Source: an uncultured Candidatus Saccharibacteria bacterium
GTDB taxonomy: Bacteria; Patescibacteriota; Minisyncoccia; Portnoybacterales; UBA2143
NCBI GenBank assembly: GCA_964650035.1
Contig: CAZYSH010000021.1
Span: forward strand, 1-11,812
DNA length: 11,812 bases
Reading direction: 5' to 3'
In this document: positions 4,042 to 11,812 of the stretch, in pieces
Position numbering within the stretch: position 1 is the stretch's first letter
Layout: each line of letters opens with the position of its first letter
Program-made: the position numbers and the translations under genes
Notes under the pieces: model-generated
Told to the model about the DNA's origin: nothing
Database searches by the model: none
The model's input: only the letters and a program-made list of their open reading frames with translations

Positions 4042-4107
4042 ATCAAGGACGTTCCTTAAAATGACGTCCTTGTACACAAGGACGTCATTTTAAGGAACGT
4101 CCTTGAT
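4042..4107. repeat. Palindrome P1: perfect 32-bp inverted repeat with a 2-nt spacer (atcaaggacgttccttaaaatgacgtccttgt-ac-acaaggacgtcattttaaggaacgtccttgat). The core looks like a bidirectional intrinsic terminator (AAAA - 12-bp stem - TTTT) nested inside extended perfect outer arms
   Basis: The reverse complement of 4042-4073 equals 4076-4107 exactly. The outer-arm segment aaggacgttcctt is itself near-self-complementary, and the GACGTC palindromes sit inside the central stem, not in that segment. It fills the whole SBP/pilin-1 intergenic gap and ends 5 nt before the pilin-1 ATG at 4113. Confidence 0.85.
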
Positions 4108-7529: not shown

Positions 7530-7613
7530 GCGGACGTGGCGGAACTGGAATACGCGCTGGGTTTAGGACCCAGTGGGATTTATCCCTTGTGGGTTCAACT
7601 CCCACCGTCCGCA
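7530..7613 (+). tRNA. tRNA-Leu (anticodon UAG), type II with a long variable arm. The 3' CCA is not encoded
   Basis: 7-bp acceptor stem GCGGACG/CGTCCGC; U8; 3-bp D-stem GCG/CGC with a long D-loop; anticodon stem CUGGG/CCCAG; 7-nt loop UUUAGGA with UAG at positions 34-36. Variable-arm hairpin GGGAU-uuu-AUCCC; T-arm GUGGG-UUCAACU-CCCAC; discriminator A. Confidence 0.9.
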
Positions 7614-7634: not shown

Positions 7635-7693
7635 GAGGTTGAACCTAAAAACTACGAACCTCGCAGAGGTTCGTAGTTTTTAGGTTCAACCTC
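7635..7693. repeat. Palindrome P2: perfect 28-bp inverted repeat with a 3-nt loop (gaggttgaacctaaaaactacgaacctc-gca-gaggttcgtagtttttaggttcaacctc), 22 nt downstream of tRNA-Leu. The core is a bidirectional terminator (AAAAA - 11-bp stem - TTTTT)
   Basis: The reverse complement of 7635-7662 equals 7666-7693 exactly. The outer segment (c)gaggttgaacct shares 12/13 nt with the gyrA-proximal hairpin ccgaggttcaacctcgg at 2066-2082. Confidence 0.85.
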
Positions 7694-8458: not shown

Positions 8459-10154
8459 ATTCCTCTTTTTCAGTTTCGATTGGATACAAATCAGGGGATT
8501 TGTAGTTGGAATAAAAAGTTTGTTTTTCCAGCTCTTCGCCACTTAGTTTATAAACTTCCTGGGTTAAGACGGCTTTCATAGAGCCGTCTTCATTGCTTTC
8601 TAAAATATAAGGGCCTTTGATTTTTACTTGACGGTTGTCATCTGTGCCGTAGAAATTGACAATAACCTGGCTACCCTGGACAGAGGCCTGAATTAAAAGG
8701 TGATTGGGCGTATTATTAACAAAGCGCAGGTCGGGTTTAGGATCGTAAACTGTGGCGTCAAAGCCCTGGGGATTGTAATAAACAACCGGGAAGGCGTGAT
8801 GCTGACGTTCAGTAATTTTTAAACCGGTATTGATTGCTGCCCGGAAGAAAGTAGTTGAAACCTGACAAACGCCGCCGCCGTATTCCGGGGTGGTTTTATC
8901 TTTTTTAATGACTAATTCTGCTTTGTATCCTTGCTCCGGGCCGGTTTCGCCCAGGAAGGCGTTAAAAGAGAATTCTTCATTTGGGTTTAGGATGTAGCCG
9001 TTTAATTTATTAACCGTTGTTTTGATATTGTGTTTTCGGTTAGCTGGCGAACCGGCAAAGCTGGAAATCCCCTGCCCAATTAGTTTTTTAATGCCTAACT
9101 GGTTAGTTTCCCATAATTTAATTTTAGGCAGGGCTTTATCGGCAATAATGGCGGTGGTTTTAATCGGCGGGTCAGCTAAAATATTTTTTACTAAATTATC
9201 AAAAGTTTGTTCTTTTTTAACTTCAAAACCGGGCTGGTCGGGCGCAAAAATAATCGCTTTATTTCTTTCAGTTTTTAGTTGAGCATTAGTTACTGGCTGG
9301 TCAACTTTACTGGCTACTCTATCTAAATATTTTTTGACTTTTTCAATGTCTAAATTAAAACCTAAAATCAGATTATCATAATCTTCTTCTTTAATTGGCT
9401 CAAAAATTATCCAATCAATTAAAATTGTTTTGTCAATTTCATATTTTTCTCCCTCAAAGGTTAAATAATAGGGCTGATTGGCTAAAACTTTCTGCGCTTT
9501 TTGTTTAGCTGAATCAACTTCATTGTTTTCCACTTCTGGCCGGCCGAGAAATAACTCTAAATTGATTGGTTCTGAAGTAAAAGTATTAATCTGTTGCTTT
9601 AGATTATTTATTAATTGTTCTCGGTTAACAGCAACGCCTTGGGTTGAGTGTTGTAGCGAATAATCATTTATTTCTGAATTAAAAATTAAAGTAGCGTTTT
9701 GAGTCGGCCGTTCAATATTTTCAAAAAGTTGGCCGGTCTGCTCTTGGAATTTTTCTTGATTTATTTGGTAAGCAGCGCTAAAAGAGCGAAAGCCGAATAA
9801 AGCGATTAATTGTTCTTTAATGTTGACTAATGGATTTGAGTGATGGCCGATTTGCTCGGCCTGATTAATAGTTGTTTGGTAGTCAGGCTGGAAGCCGAGC
9901 TCGGTAATGTCAACTAACCAAATTTTATCTTGATAAACGAGCTTTACTTTTTGTTGAATAAATTGCTCCCATTTTTCAGCTAATAGTTTTTCCGCGGAAG
10001 AAATATTTTTTCCGCCCAAATGCAAATCATCTACTTTAACGCCCCAGGCAATTTTTTGGCTATTAACTATTTGCAGGGTTAGAATGAGATAAATTGAGCA
10101 GATAAAAATAATTAGAACGAAGATTTTTAGTTGTTTTTTAAGAAATTTTTTCAT
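8457..10154 (-). CDS. VanW-domain protein (vancomycin-resistance protein W family) with an N-terminal membrane anchor
   Basis: N-terminal TM (IFVLIIFICSIYLILTL). VanW signature region PEYGGGVCQVSTTFFRAAINTGLKITERQHHAFPVVYY (conserved GGGVCQVSTT motif). 565 aa. Confidence 0.88.
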   Translation of the reverse strand: MKKFLKKQLKIFVLIIFICSIYLILTLQIVNSQKIAWGVKVDDLHLGGKNISSAEKLLAEKWEQFIQQKVKLVYQDKIWLVDITELGFQPDYQTTINQAEQIGHHSNPLVNIKEQLIALFGFRSFSAAYQINQEKFQEQTGQLFENIERPTQNATLIFNSEINDYSLQHSTQGVAVNREQLINNLKQQINTFTSEPINLELFLGRPEVENNEVDSAKQKAQKVLANQPYYLTFEGEKYEIDKTILIDWIIFEPIKEEDYDNLILGFNLDIEKVKKYLDRVASKVDQPVTNAQLKTERNKAIIFAPDQPGFEVKKEQTFDNLVKNILADPPIKTTAIIADKALPKIKLWETNQLGIKKLIGQGISSFAGSPANRKHNIKTTVNKLNGYILNPNEEFSFNAFLGETGPEQGYKAELVIKKDKTTPEYGGGVCQVSTTFFRAAINTGLKITERQHHAFPVVYYNPQGFDATVYDPKPDLRFVNNTPNHLLIQASVQGSQVIVNFYGTDDNRQVKIKGPYILESNEDGSMKAVLTQEVYKLSGEELEKQTFYSNYKSPDLYPIETEKEE

Positions 10155-10203
10155 TAATTTAAGGAGAAAAACCTGAGATAGTTGGGGACAGAGTTAGAAG
10201 TTG

Positions 10204-10277
10204 GAGATTCAAGGTGTGGCCTCAAAATTACTACCCTTTGCAAAGGGTAGTAATTTTGAGGCCACACCTTGAATCTC
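10204..10277. repeat. Palindrome P3: 74-bp perfect palindrome (37-bp arms, no spacer) in the vanW upstream region, with a bidirectional-terminator-like core (AAAA - 13-bp stem ttactaccctttg/caaagggtagtaa - TTTT)
   Basis: The reverse complement of 10204-10240 (gagattcaaggtgtggcctcaaaattactaccctttg) equals 10241-10277 exactly. It is flanked by imperfectly complementary agttgg / ccaact-type short repeats, which could extend the pairing. Confidence 0.85.
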
Positions 10278-10329
10278 ACCCAACTCCCAACTCCAACTCC
10301 CTCCACTCCTATAATTATCATAACAAAAA

Positions 10330-10358
10330 ACAGGGGATGAGTGTATCCCCTGTTTTTT
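10330..10358 (-). terminator. Rho-independent terminator of the hsp20 gene, usable on both strands (aaaaaacaggggat-gagtgt-atcccctgtttttt)
   Basis: 9-bp stem acaggggat/atcccctgt with a 6-nt loop. An A6 tract lies upstream and a T6 tract downstream. It sits 15 nt beyond the hsp20 stop on the minus strand. Confidence 0.65.
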
Positions 10359-10372
10359 GTTCCTAGAAAATT

Positions 10373-10996
10373 CTATTCACTTTTAATCATTATCTTCTTA
10401 GTTTTGATTTTTTCCACTTTAGGTAATCTGATAGTTAGAATTCCATTTTTCATACCGGCATCGGCATTGTCAACTTCAACGTCAATAGGTAGAATTATCG
10501 ACCGCGAGAATGGCCCCCAGTAGCATTCTTGGTAATAATAATCTTCTTCTTTGACTTTCTCGTCTTTTTCTCTCGTTCCCTTAATGGTTATCATATCATT
10601 AGTCATACTAATATCAATATCTTCCGGTTTAACACCGGCAATAGTTGATTTAATAATAACTTCGTTGGGCGTCTGGTAGACGTCAATAGTTAGCTGGCCT
10701 TCTGATTCAGTTAGCCATTCCTCTGATTTTTTGTCTTCTATTACAGGTTCTTTTTTAGTTTTAGCGGTTTTTTTGGGCATAGTTATTTTTTTGGCTCTGT
10801 CAGACGGATGTTCTACTGAAATATCTTTTTCAATCACTTTGGATTTTACTTTCTTGGTATTTTTATTAGCGGTCTTCTTCTTTTTGGTTTCTTCTTCAGA
10901 CCAGCTGGCGCCGGTTAATTTTTCGAAGAATGATGAGGGCATAGATATGTTTTTGTCATTGTGAGCGAAGCGAAACAATCCCGTGCAATATCTCAA
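10373..10996 (-). CDS. Hsp20/alpha-crystallin family small heat-shock protein with a Lys-rich N-terminal extension
   Basis: Alpha-crystallin domain: TIDVYQTPNEVIIKSTIAGVKPEDIDISMTNDMITIKGTRE ... WGPFSRSIILPIDVEVDNADAGMKNGILTIRLPK (GxLTIxLPK C-terminal signature). The ORF track starts at a TTG (10996) that has an AAGGA SD 10 nt upstream. An in-frame ATG at 10942 with no SD (MPSSFFEK...) is an alternative start. Confidence 0.88.
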   Translation of the reverse strand: MRYCTGLFRFAHNDKNISMPSSFFEKLTGASWSEEETKKKKTANKNTKKVKSKVIEKDISVEHPSDRAKKITMPKKTAKTKKEPVIEDKKSEEWLTESEGQLTIDVYQTPNEVIIKSTIAGVKPEDIDISMTNDMITIKGTREKDEKVKEEDYYYQECYWGPFSRSIILPIDVEVDNADAGMKNGILTIRLPKVEKIKTKKIMIKSE

Positions 10997-11005
10997 TTCT
11001 GTGGG

Positions 11006-11059
11006 ATCCTTCGCCTGCTCGCCTCGCTGAAGCTTCGGCGAAGCGGGCAGGCTCAGGAT
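11006..11059 (-). promoter_or_regulatory. GC-rich imperfect hairpin in the prsW-hsp20 intergenic region. Its 5' AUCCU pairs with the hsp20 SD (AAGGAU). Candidate translational control element (RNA-thermometer-like)
   Basis: On the minus-strand RNA: AUCCUgaGCCUGCccgcuucgcc-gaagcuuc-agcgaggcgaGCAGGCgaAGGAU. The outer AUCCU/AGGAU and GCCUGC/GCAGGC pair perfectly, and the inner arms pair with 2 mismatches. The element is GC-rich in an AT-rich genome. The SD lies 10 nt upstream of the TTG start of hsp20. Confidence 0.4.
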
Positions 11060-11068
11060 GACAATAGT

Positions 11069-11812
11069 TTAAGTTTTACAAATAGATTGTTGGTTTTTTA
11101 ATTTTTTAAAATAATAGGAAACTACCAAACCAGTACTGATTAACAAGACGGCGATTACTGAAAGGAATAATAATTTAATATTGGAGTCGGTTTGGTTAAA
11201 GGTTGTAAGGATAAGGTAATTGTAGCAGCTGTGGAAAATAATGGCAATAGTTAAACCAACAAGAACGAATTTAGTTCTTTTTTTAAGTTCAATCAAACCT
11301 CGGGCCAGCCAATAACCAACTATTGCTGAAGCTAAAGCATGGACCAAGGTGGCTCCCAAAAAGCGAAAACTTATAGTGCTTAAGGCCTGTTCCAGCCCGG
11401 GGAAATCAATTTTAAAAAGAACCATTAGATTTTCCACTGCGGCAAAACCCAGACCTGCTATAATACAATATATCATAGCATCAGTTGGTTCGTCAAATAC
11501 TGATTTTTTAATAACTTTAAATCTAACTATTGCGTATTTAAGATATTCTTCAACTAAGGCCGGGACAAGAGTGGCTGCCAGGGCGACTTTGATAAATCTA
11601 GCTTGGGGCAGACGCGATAAGATTTCCAGGGGATTAACGCTTGGATTAAGCAGCCAAATCAGAGTCAGTTCAAAAACAATGGCCAGAGGAGCAATTAACA
11701 TGCCGTAGAAAAATATTTTCAAAACCATTGAATTCGGCTCCGGGTTTTTATCTTTTCTTAAATAAAAAGACAGCCAGATTAAGCTGGGCAGGAGACCAAG
11801 GAGAATGTAGAA
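11069..11812 (-). CDS. PrsW-family intramembrane metalloprotease (CPBP/Abi-like), 5'-truncated at the window end (frame open through nt 11812)
   Basis: Polytopic membrane protein with the PrsW motifs EExxK (PALVEEYLKY), FxxxEN (GLGFAAVENL) and HxxxN (FHSCYN). The reading frame continues upstream of the listed ATG (11728) to the window edge (..FYILLGLLPSLIWLSFYLRKDKNPEPNS-MVLK..), so the true N-terminus lies outside the window. Confidence 0.8.
   Translation of the reverse strand, partial: FYILLGLLPSLIWLSFYLRKDKNPEPNSMVLKIFFYGMLIAPLAIVFELTLIWLLNPSVNPLEILSRLPQARFIKVALAATLVPALVEEYLKYAIVRFKVIKKSVFDEPTDAMIYCIIAGLGFAAVENLMVLFKIDFPGLEQALSTISFRFLGATLVHALASAIVGYWLARGLIELKKRTKFVLVGLTIAIIFHSCYNYLILTTFNQTDSNIKLLFLSVIAVLLISTGLVVSYYFKKLKNQQSICKT

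What the first reader, a model, noticed from the sequence alone, without database searches (positions are those of the whole stretch)
10942..11068. Hsp20 leader: GC-rich long hairpin that base-pairs the Shine-Dalgarno sequence, a candidate RNA thermometer, with prsW-hsp20 co-transcription implied
The prsW stop (11069) and the hsp20 start are separated by a locally GC-rich segment that is unusual for this genome. On the minus-strand RNA it forms an imperfect hairpin of about 25 bp. The AAGGAU SD of hsp20, 10 nt before its TTG start, is paired to AUCCU at the 5' base of the hairpin. Occluding the SD with a meltable hairpin is how ROSE and fourU thermometers control small heat-shock genes. No promoter fits between prsW and the hairpin, so hsp20 would be co-transcribed with the PrsW-family protease. 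That would be a stress-protease plus chaperone unit in which the chaperone has an independent post-transcriptional thermal switch. If the true start is instead the ATG at 10942, the structure is still a conspicuous 5' element. The region also has imperfect terminal inverted repeats (tgtcattgtgagcgaagcg ... cgcttcgccgaagc..tgacaat), so a MITE-like insertion is an alternative explanation.
Basis: partly seen in the sequence, partly recalled or inferred. Interest (0 to 1): 0.6.

Follow-up and report, generated by a model that had tools for sequence, protein, structure and literature searches.

The report
Palindromic repeat element, not thermometer
The GC-rich hairpin in front of the small heat-shock gene is one copy of a widespread palindromic DNA repeat (a REP-type inverted doublet) that sits between two genes, and neither its position nor its predicted stability fits a temperature-sensing RNA switch.

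Summary
The structure is real: 112 nt (10953-11064, minus strand), GC-rich, MFE -50 kcal/mol, z = -4.7. It is not an Hsp20 thermometer.

- **Start codon.** The conserved Hsp20 start is ATG 10942. 116 of the 120 best homologues begin M + 1-4 residues + SFFEK. This ATG lies 10 nt outside the structure, in an unpaired A/U-rich stretch with no Shine-Dalgarno (SD) sequence.
- **The "SD".** AAGGAT is simply the 3' half of a repeat-module stem, and the TTG ORF reads through the other module.
- **Stability.** The fold persists to 55 C in silico.
- **Closest relative.** It has lost 12 nt of the GC hairpin.
- **Other orthologous loci.** Some lack the element altogether.

The element is an inverted doublet of two modules: TGTCAT-xyz-GAGCGAAGCGAA-x'y'z'-ATC. 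One of the two carries a variable GC hairpin in place of the small loop. The same module occurs in at least 120 viral contigs. One arm's exact 22-mer occurs in 34 unrelated metagenome contigs (GC 0.31-0.69). Several copies occur per 20 kb in other Patescibacteria, some in frame inside RecG, TsaD and an aminoacyl-tRNA synthetase.

This matches the published CGTC/TGTC-tagged REP superfamily (PMC3733652). Co-transcription of prsW and hsp20 is plausible from conserved synteny. The element changes far more slowly than synonymous sites, so some constraint or homogenisation acts on it.

The parts
10953..11064 (-). Whole palindromic doublet (REP-type heterodimer), bounded by TTGTCAT ... ATGACAA. It starts 5 nt after the prsW stop and ends 10 nt before the hsp20 ATG.
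   Evidence: Read directly from the sequence. MFE -50.2, z = -4.66. The two TGTCATNNNGAGC sites are the only ones in the window.
11003..11063 (-). Expanded (E-type) module: TGTCAT-CCT-GAGC [37-nt GC hairpin] CGA-AGG-ATCCC.
   Evidence: Structural scan. Other members of the family carry comparable variable GC hairpins at this position.
11014..11050 (-). Its sequence is not conserved across the family.
   Evidence: Folded with its two flanking C residues (39 nt), the insert gives -24.5 kcal/mol, z = -4.8. The 98%-identical relative L121/L122 lacks 12 nt of it (TTCGCCGAAGCT).
11006..11011 (-). It is the 3' strand of the module stem (ATCCT/AGGAT).
   Evidence: The CCT/AGG stem variant occurs in 27 of 123 independent modules. 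P(unpaired) is 0.08-0.20 from 15 to 55 C.
10983..11002 (-). 20-nt spacer between the two modules. It contains the in-frame TTG (10996-10994), which is probably not a start codon.
10954..10982 (+). Short (S-type) module, TGTCAT-TGT-GAGCGAAGCGAA-ACA-ATCCC. It reads in the module sense on the + strand, so it is inverted relative to the E module.
   Evidence: The exact 22-mer arm occurs in 34 unrelated metagenome contigs.
10373..10942 (-). hsp20 CDS from the conserved ATG (MPSSFFEKLTG..., 189 aa).
   Evidence: Pfam HSP20, 1.7e-19. Homologue N-termini. Orthologous loci.
11069..11812 (-). prsW (PrsW-family intramembrane protease). It runs off the window end.
   Evidence: Pfam PF13367, 9.9e-30. Synteny.
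10325..10352 (-). Terminator-like hairpin plus T-run directly after the hsp20 stop (CAGGGGATacactcATCCCCTG TTTTTT).
   Evidence: Read directly. Identical in L121 while the unstructured bases in front of it differ. The consensus scan did not list it.

Best explanation
The segment is one copy of a repetitive extragenic palindrome of the CGTC/TGTC-tagged REP type, organised as an inverted heterodimer.

**Anatomy.** Each module has five parts:
- a terminal TGTC tag;
- a stem that starts with AT and whose next three positions covary;
- a GA-rich internal loop (GAG / CGAA);
- an apical GCGNAGC mini-hairpin, or a longer GC hairpin of variable sequence in its place;
- a short C-rich tail.

Here an expanded module (11063-11003) and a short module (10982-10954) face each other across a 20-nt spacer.

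**Location.** The doublet sits in the prsW-hsp20 spacer, starting 5 nt after the prsW stop. That is where such repeats typically sit.

**Shown.**
- The element belongs to the repeat family.
- Its presence is patchy among orthologous loci.
- The hsp20 start is the conserved ATG outside the structure.
- The predicted fold is insensitive to temperature.

**Inferred.**
- The unit is transcribed as part of a prsW-hsp20 message, where it forms a very stable Y-shaped structure.
- By analogy with REPs, that structure would act constitutively, for example as a barrier to 3'-exonucleases or a processing site that uncouples the two cistrons. It would not act as a thermal switch.
- Hsp20 translation starts without an SD, as it appears to in most relatives.
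- How the family spreads is unknown. Published CGTC REPs have no dedicated transposase.
For: **Family membership**
By my arithmetic, fewer than 1 hit is expected by chance.
- In 111 of 123 distinct instances the three variable stem bases are matched by their complement downstream. At least 8 different compensated stem variants were seen.
- 36 of the 123 have an inverted partner within 170 nt. Total element lengths are 53-158 nt.
- The exact 22-mer of the window's short arm occurs in 34 metagenome contigs with GC 0.31-0.69 and unrelated flanks. Most of these show a recognisable expanded partner module upstream.
- A Novosphingobium megaplasmid carries doublets.

**In Patescibacteria**
- L164 has 4 elements in 20 kb. 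L156, L133, L131, L148 and L186 have others.
- Some are in frame inside a class I aminoacyl-tRNA synthetase, RecG and TsaD. The insertions stand out cleanly in the aaRS and RecG alignments against orthologues. The TsaD copy is read from the ORF translation and a split Pfam match.

**Orthologous loci**
- The element is present in L121/L122 and L129.
- It is absent in L123, L126, L127 and L128. L123 is the sister lineage in a rough tree.

**Start codon**
- 116 of 120 homologues begin M + 1-4 aa + SFFEK.
- Only 3 of 28 relatives have an SD-like motif.

**Folding**
- MFE is -72 kcal/mol at 15 C and -33 at 55 C, with essentially the same structure.
- P(unpaired) of AAGGAU rises only from 0.08 to 0.20.
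- The ATG region is 0.53-0.76 unpaired throughout.

**Literature (PMC3733652)**
CGTC REPs are described with:
- a CGTC or TGTC tag;
- stems starting with AT;
- short tails;
- inverted, mostly heterodimeric pairs with 20-100 bp spacers;
- a position under 20 bp from the 3' end of the upstream ORF;
- in-frame copies inside tRNA synthetase, helicase and repair genes;
- no dedicated transposase.
Against: - Only 11.8 kb of this genome is available, and it holds a single element. Multi-copy status in this organism is therefore inferred from relatives, not shown.
- The consensus sequences of the four published CGTC families are in a figure I could not read. Assignment to the superfamily rests on architecture, not on a sequence match.
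- The element is much better conserved between the window and L121 than synonymous sites. There are 2 substitutions in 112 nt against pS = 0.14 (binomial P about 9e-6). It is not freely decaying, so a local function cannot be excluded.
- Its presence at the same junction in the window and in L129, but not in lineages placed between them, needs either repeated loss or repeated insertion at one site.
Confidence: 0.85

Rival explanations
1. RNA thermometer. Hsp20 starts at TTG 10996. Its AAGGAU SD is sequestered in the hairpin at low temperature and released by heat.
For: - AAGGAT lies 9 nt upstream of an in-frame TTG, and the 18 codons down to the ATG contain no stop.
- The motif is mostly paired: P(unpaired) is 0.14 at 37 C.
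- The downstream gene is a small heat-shock protein.
- ATG 10942 has no SD.
Against: - The TTG extension (MRYCTGLFRFAHNDKNIS) is the translation of the repeat arm. Comparable ...RFRGND and ...PRND peptides arise wherever such repeats are read.
- 116 of 120 homologues start just before SFFEK.
- L129 carries the element without a comparable SD/TTG pair.
- The fold is still at -33 kcal/mol at 55 C.
- There is a 12-nt deletion in the hairpin in the 98% relative.
- AAGGAT is an ordinary stem variant of the family.
- No Rfam thermometer family matches at E <= 1.
- SD-less hsp20 starts are the norm in the clade.
Confidence: 0.04
2. Exapted repeat. The element is of REP origin but is now a required cis-acting RNA for the prsW-hsp20 unit. 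It could be an intercistronic processing or stability element, an attenuator, or a standby platform for SD-independent initiation.
For: - The substitution rate in the element is about 8-fold below the synonymous rate of the flanking genes.
- Roughly ten of the 28 related loci have a significantly stable hairpin (z <= -2) of unrelated sequence in the same spacer. The hairpin ends 10-15 nt before the ATG.
- The element starts 5 nt after the prsW stop.
Against: - Many relatives have no spacer hairpin at all (L123, L126-L128, L132, L136, L142, L154).
- The apical hairpin is dispensable, as shown by the L121 deletion.
- Low divergence could equally come from gene conversion among copies, or from selection on the repeat's own maintenance.
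- There is no T-run for termination.
Confidence: 0.2
3. Chance hairpin, or an ordinary terminator of prsW.
For: Its position directly after a stop codon.
Against: - 0 of 200 shuffles fold as well.
- Both arms match a family found hundreds of times elsewhere.
- No T-run follows the structure, and the scan reports no terminator here.
Confidence: 0.01

Closest known systems
CGTC-tagged REPs (Di Nocera, De Gregorio & Rocco 2013, PMC3733652). The superfamily includes Neisseria dRS3 and Rickettsia RPE-4/RPE-6.
   Same: - Terminal (C/T)GTC tag.
- Stem beginning with A-T, A-T.
- Short C-rich tail.
- Inverted dimers, mostly heterodimers, with 20-100 bp spacers.
- Position within 20 bp of the 3' end of the upstream ORF.
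- In-frame copies inside tRNA synthetase and helicase genes.
- No neighbouring transposase.
- Encoded peptides starting VI... and ending ...ND.
   Different: - The stem-loop sequence (xyz-GAGCGAAGCGAA-x'y'z', with tandem G.A and a GNA triloop) could not be compared with the four published consensus sequences, which are in a figure not held.
- One module here carries a 37-nt apical hairpin.
- The paper lists five host phyla. Patescibacteria and viral contigs are not among them.
REPIN/RAYT systems and E. coli BIMEs (PMC3116915, PMC3337134)
   Same: Two inverted REPs separated by a spacer that fold into one long hairpin. They are intergenic, and the dimers are of unlike partners.
   Different: - The tag is TGTC, not GTAG.
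- No RAYT gene is known for CGTC-type repeats (PMC3733652), and none is in the window.
Rickettsia palindromic elements (RPE), as summarised in PMC3733652
   Same: Members of the family are inserted in frame in essential genes and translated: aaRS, RecG and TsaD in other Patescibacteria.
   Different: The copy in this window is intergenic. Its usual coding frames are not in register (109 nt from TGT to GAC).
ROSE and fourU RNA thermometers of small heat-shock genes (PMC3669281, PMC2887971)
   Same: A hairpin upstream of an sHSP gene, with a purine-rich AGGA-containing motif base-paired.
   Different: - No Rfam match.
- The true start and its upstream 15 nt are outside the structure.
- There is no SD.
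- The structure is far too stable (-50 kcal/mol, persisting at 55 C).
- It is not conserved among orthologues.
- It is a repeat found at unrelated loci.

Membership tests
ROSE-type RNA thermometer | Sequence/structure match to the curated family model | tested here: not met
   cmscan of the whole window at E <= 1 returns no thermometer family. The only hit in the region is a sub-threshold miRNA-like hairpin.
ROSE-type RNA thermometer | SD and start codon of the regulated gene lie in the final hairpin and are paired at low temperature | tested here: not met
   The conserved ATG 10942 is 10 nt beyond the element. It has no SD, and its -15..+6 region is 0.53-0.76 unpaired at 15-55 C. The start is fixed by homologue N-termini.
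ROSE-type RNA thermometer | Marginal stability, melting within the physiological range | tested here: not met
   In silico only. The structure is essentially the same from 15 to 55 C, at -33 kcal/mol at 55 C. Experimental melting is not testable here.
fourU RNA thermometer | Four consecutive U residues paired with AGGA of the SD | tested here: not met
   AAGGAU is opposite AUCCU or GGGAUU, with no U4 stretch. No Rfam hit.
CGTC-tagged REP superfamily (PMC3733652) | [quoted passage not shown] | tested here: met
   TGTC at 11063-11060 and at 10954-10957 (opposite strands). The orthologous copy in L129 has CGTC.
CGTC-tagged REP superfamily (PMC3733652) | Stem of 8-9 bp with complementary A-T in the first and second positions | tested here: met
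   AT-xyz ... x'y'z'-AT in both modules. Counting the tandem G.A and two G-C pairs, the short module has 9 stacked positions. 111 of 123 instances have complementary xyz.
CGTC-tagged REP superfamily (PMC3733652) | Loop of 4-5 nt and a short unpaired tail (consensus CCA) | tested here: inconclusive
   The short module has a GAA triloop (5 nt if the closing C-G pair is not counted). The expanded module has a 37-nt hairpin instead. The tail is CCC or CTC rather than CCA. The paper notes that families with other loops exist.
CGTC-tagged REP superfamily (PMC3733652) | Mostly inverted dimers, often heterodimers, with spacers of 20-100 bp | tested here: met
   E and S modules are inverted with a 20-nt spacer. 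36 of 123 viral instances have a partner within 170 nt.
CGTC-tagged REP superfamily (PMC3733652) | Many copies dispersed in one genome | not testable with these tools
   Only 11.8 kb of this genome is held, with one element. A related Patescibacteria locus (L164) has 4 elements in 20 kb.
CGTC-tagged REP superfamily (PMC3733652) | Sequence match to one of the four published family consensus sequences | not testable with these tools
   The consensus sequences are in Figure 2, which is not held. The supplementary files contain no matching strings.
REPIN/RAYT system | GTAG-tagged REPs and a cognate single-copy RAYT gene flanked by them | tested here: not met
   The tag is TGTC. No transposase domain is found in any window ORF. 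The rest of the genome is not available.
MITE | Terminal inverted repeats plus target-site duplication and a related autonomous IS | tested here: inconclusive
   TIRs are present (TTGTCAT/ATGACAA). No consistent duplication appears at the flanks of copies. No autonomous partner was identified. An association with GIY-YIG genes was tested and rejected.

The most novel reading that the evidence does not exclude
The TGTC-tagged GAGCGAAGCGAA repeat may be an undescribed branch of the CGTC REP superfamily, under active maintenance.

- It would be shared across very distant hosts: Patescibacteria, Alphaproteobacteria, and contigs classed as viral with 31-69% GC.
- It colonises essential genes in frame.
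- In this lineage it is held almost unchanged while synonymous sites diverge by 14%.

That would point to a trans-acting maintenance or mobilisation activity. One candidate is an enzyme that recognises the GCGNAGC DNA mini-hairpin on single strands. It could also point to an exapted role in the prsW-hsp20 transcript.
Probability: 0.25. Interest if true: 0.55.

Novelty: new member of a known kind. Interest (0 to 1): 0.27.

Why it matters
- **Removes a false positive.** A stable hairpin that pairs an AGGA motif in front of a heat-shock gene looks like a thermometer. Here it is a generic repeat, and its 'SD' and 'alternative start' are by-products of the repeat sequence.
- **Annotation.** Start-codon callers can be drawn into these repeats, producing N-terminal extensions such as ...RFAHNDK. 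Gene callers will also translate in-frame copies inside real proteins.
- **Host range.** It extends CGTC/TGTC-type REPs to Patescibacteria, whose small genomes are usually thought to carry little repetitive DNA.
- **An open problem.** The low substitution rate makes the unsolved question of how CGTC REPs are maintained or mobilised somewhat more concrete.

Tried and rejected
- **Rfam.** Searches of the window and of five loci with canonical copies gave no family for the element.
- **Literature search by sequence string.** It returned only unrelated primer matches. Keyword searches for palindromic elements in CPR found nothing relevant.
- **GIY-YIG homing endonucleases.** I recalled a link between these repeats and small GIY-YIG genes. 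A regex scan found one GIY-YIG ORF among 204 neighbouring ORFs. Only 1 of the 6 credible GIY-YIG ORFs (7 regex hits) across all loci lies near a module. Rejected.
- **Hammerhead-like core.** Considered for CUGA...CGAA and rejected by inspection: the motif is not kept in the TGC stem variant.
- **Orientation relative to genes.** The bias is only weak. Between co-directional genes the short module is sense in 50 cases and antisense in 29. Convergent pairs number 31 and divergent 22. This uses mechanical ORFs, so it is noisy, and it cannot decide between an RNA-level and a DNA-level role.
- **Formal pair counting.** Not done on alignment A1. The TGC and TCT/CCT variants differ by one base in register and MAFFT left the alignment ungapped. 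The direct count is used instead.
- **Plasmid and isolate-phage collections.** They gave almost nothing: one Novosphingobium plasmid and spurious 26-nt phage hits.
- **Promoter scan.** No credible promoter was found inside the element.
Full report
**Context**

The window is a low-GC Patescibacteria (CPR) contig. Pfam identifies the following:
- a GyrA fragment;
- a SAM methyltransferase;
- a solute-binding protein;
- three T4SS-pilin-like proteins;
- a Band_7 protein;
- a tRNA;
- a VanW protein;
- Hsp20 (10373-10942, minus strand);
- a PrsW protease (11069-11812, minus strand, running off the end).

The best Hsp20 relatives are all from Patescibacteria. Several are labelled Portnoybacteria.

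Yes. Between the prsW stop (11071-11069) and the hsp20 ATG (10942) lie 126 nt. Of these, 112 nt (11064-10953) form a GC-rich structured block.

- GC is 0.53 against 0.28-0.43 in the flanks.
- The GC hairpin is inverted repeat I5, with 31-nt arms that are 84% complementary.
- The 146-nt region folds at -50.2 kcal/mol. Shuffles average -33.1 +/- 3.7, giving z = -4.66, and none of 200 shuffles folds as well.

The full-length MFE is a three-way junction:
- an outer stem (TTGTCAT..GAGC with GCTC..ATGACAA);
- the apical GC hairpin;
- a third helix in which CGAAG-GAUCCC pairs with GGGAUU-UUCG across the spacer.

**Which start codon?**

The ATG at 10942.
- Among the 120 best homologues, 116 begin with M, then 1-4 residues, then SFFEK. 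One has a long extension.
- In orthologous loci the ATG and the following codons are conserved (MPSSFFEK or MSPSFFEK) whatever lies upstream.
- The 18-codon TTG extension, MRYCTGLFRFAHNDKNIS, is the repeat arm read in one frame. Comparable peptides (...LLRRYVPRNDA...APRNDK...AQNDK) appear wherever such repeats are translated. Published CGTC REPs give ...RFRGND.
- Between the window and its 98% relative, the 18 codons carry two non-synonymous changes and one synonymous change. The hsp20 CDS has 4 non-synonymous and 18 synonymous. These counts are small.

**Is there an SD to occlude?**

No.
- The 20 nt before the ATG (acaatgacaaaaacatatct) contain no SD.
- This is normal for the clade. Only 3 of 28 related loci have an SD-like motif before hsp20.
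- Several other genes in the window that follow hairpins also lack one.
- The ATG region lies outside the structure and is predicted 0.53-0.76 unpaired from 15 to 55 C.

**Does the structure behave like a thermometer?**

No.
- The predicted structure is essentially unchanged from 15 to 55 C. The MFE goes from -72 to -33 kcal/mol.
- P(unpaired) of AAGGAU rises only from 0.08 to 0.20.
- No Rfam thermometer family, or any other family, matches.
- The nearest relatives (L121 and L122, Hsp20 98% identical) have lost 12 nt (TTCGCCGAAGCT) from the GC hairpin, which removes half of its stem.

**What is it?**

It is an inverted pair of two versions of one module.

- **Short (S) module**, 10954-10982, read on the plus strand: TGTCAT-TGT-GAGCGAAGCGAA-ACA-ATCCC.
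- **Expanded (E) module**, 11063-11003, minus strand: TGTCAT-CCT-GAGC-[37-nt GC hairpin]-CGA-AGG-ATCCC.

Evidence from public collections:
The 3' side was left free in that search. A pattern with 18 fixed and 3 two-fold positions has a per-site probability of 1.8e-12, so by my arithmetic fewer than one chance hit is expected even in 1e11 bases.
- In 111 of 123 distinct instances the three variable bases are followed by their complement: TGC/GCA 48, TCT/AGA 36, CCT/AGG 27.
- Further compensated variants occur elsewhere: TGT/ACA, CGC/GCG, CTT/AAG, TCC/GGA, TAC/GTA.
- AAGGAT is therefore just the CCT-type stem.
- 36 of 123 have an inverted partner within 170 nt. Whole elements measure 53-158 nt.
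- Partners are usually of the expanded kind. Their apical parts differ in sequence but are mostly hairpins.
- 22 of 58 partner arms carry GCGNAGC, and none carries its reverse complement.
- GCGNAGC is the 'extraordinarily stable' DNA mini-hairpin reviewed in PMC13037366.
- The exact 22-mer of the window's short arm occurs in 34 metagenome contigs with GC 0.31-0.69 and unrelated flanks.
- Doublets also occur on a Novosphingobium megaplasmid.

**In Patescibacteria**

In about 1.2 Mb of loci fetched around Hsp20 relatives, clear modules occur in L129, L131, L133, L148, L156, L164 and L186. L164 alone has three doublets and a singlet in 20 kb.

Several copies are inside genes and in frame:
- a class I aminoacyl-tRNA synthetase, in L133;
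- RecG, in L164 and L131 at different positions. The L164 copy shows as a clean 30-residue gap in the L131 protein;
- TsaD, in L164, encoding ...VCHSERSEESRG...AQNDK (read from the ORF translation and a split Pfam match).

**Orthologous loci**

The gene order class I aaRS - PrsW - Hsp20 - VanW is conserved. PrsW directly precedes Hsp20 in all 28 loci examined.

The element's distribution:
- It is at the same junction in L121/L122 and in L129. L129 has a simple 60-nt doublet with a CGTC tag.
- It is absent from L123, L126, L127 and L128, whose spacers are 0-21 nt. Three of these carry AAGGAG or AAAGGAA 7-8 nt before the ATG.
- In a rough neighbour-joining tree of PrsW+Hsp20, L123 is sister to the window lineage and L129 is more distant. 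Presence is therefore patchy, needing repeated loss or repeated gain.

Other relatives carry unrelated hairpins in the same spacer.

**Comparison with the literature**

The architecture matches the CGTC-tagged REPs of Di Nocera et al. 2013 (PMC3733652):
[quoted passage not shown] - short tails;
- predominantly inverted dimers, often heterodimers, with 20-100 bp spacers;
- a location within 20 bp of the 3' end of the upstream ORF;
- in-frame copies in tRNA synthetase, helicase and repair genes, including Rickettsia RPE-4/-6;
- no dedicated transposase.

That paper lists Proteobacteria, Chlorobi, Bacteroidetes, Spirochaetes and Thermotogae as hosts, not Patescibacteria. It also notes that REPs falling in the 5' end of annotated ORFs are probably not coding, which is the situation of the TTG ORF. 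I could not read the family consensus sequences (Figure 2), so assignment to one of the four families is open.

**Constraint**

Between the window and L121:
- pS is 0.14 across hsp20 and prsW (40 synonymous differences over 286 synonymous sites);
- pN is 0.014;
- the 112-nt element has 2 substitutions plus the 12-nt deletion;
- the 10 nt between the element and the ATG have 2 substitutions.

The binomial probability of 2 or fewer substitutions at the synonymous rate is about 9e-6. The hsp20 terminator hairpin shows the same pattern. The element is therefore not decaying freely. Selection on structure or sequence, or homogenisation among copies, would both explain this, and I cannot separate them.

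**Mechanism**

*Shown:*
- the element belongs to the repeat family;
- its presence is patchy among orthologous loci;
- the hsp20 start lies outside the structure;
- the predicted fold is stable across temperatures.

*Inferred:*
- The doublet is transcribed within a prsW-hsp20 message.
- It acts, if at all, as a constitutive structural element, for example an exonuclease barrier or processing site, as proposed for REPs (PMC3733652). It is not a thermal switch.
- Its spread may involve single-stranded DNA hairpins. This is only a lead, based on the GCGNAGC motif.

**Verdict**

The thermometer interpretation is not supported. This is a new member of a known kind, in a new host phylum, and of low to moderate interest.

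Noticed in passing
window 10170-10300 (core palindrome 10204-10277): A 74-nt perfect palindrome flanked by GGAGTTGG-type repeats lies between the hsp20 terminator and the VanW start. The whole block is absent from the 98%-identical relative L121/L122, where a different 80-nt sequence sits. It is therefore a strain-level insertion/deletion.
   Followed up: partly
window 4042-4107: A 66-nt perfect palindrome (32-nt arms, 2-nt loop) ends 5 nt before the ATG (4113) of the first T4SS-pilin-like gene. An AAGGAA lies inside its 3' arm, 14 nt before the ATG. This looks more like an occluded ribosome-binding site than the finding under review does.
   Followed up: no
window 7635-7693 and about 2065-2085: A 59-nt perfect palindrome lies just downstream of the tRNA (7530-7613). 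It shares the motif GAGGTTsAACCTC with a small hairpin upstream of the methyltransferase gene. L121 has a similar GAGGTTGAAC... sequence in its hsp20-VanW spacer. This may be a second repeat family.
   Followed up: no
L164:1907-1995, L164:7578-7712, L131:507-600, L133:4376-4455: Copies of the same repeat family are inserted in frame in RecG (at two different sites in two genomes), TsaD and a class I aminoacyl-tRNA synthetase of other Patescibacteria. They add 25-45 residues such as VCHSERSEES...AQNDK.
   Followed up: yes
L124:2933-2991, L140:~9905-9990, L143:~848-911, L144, L145, L146 (prsW-hsp20 spacers): A sister clade carries a different, A/U-rich imperfect hairpin (GAACAATGAACAATGAACA ... 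TGTTCGCTGTTCTCTGTTC) at the same place. It ends 10-15 nt before the hsp20 ATG and is not found elsewhere within these loci; similar motifs were seen only at other positions in L168 and L170. Its marginal stability makes it a better thermometer candidate than the element in the window.
   Followed up: partly
window 10325-10352: A canonical-looking intrinsic terminator (8-bp GC-rich stem plus T6) directly follows the hsp20 stop. It is fully conserved in L121 while the unstructured bases in front of it differ. The consensus terminator scan did not list it.
   Followed up: partly
viral loci, e.g. L053, L067, L118, L052 (and 52 listings): Many modules are preceded by one or more partial tandem copies of their own 5' end (TGTCATTGCGAGC-spacer-TGTCATTGCGAGC...). 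This suggests slippage or abortive copying at the tag end.
   Followed up: no
L156:15909-16000: A doublet of the family lies about 330 nt upstream of the 5' end of a 16S rRNA gene (13924-15578, minus strand) in a Portnoybacteria MAG.
   Followed up: no
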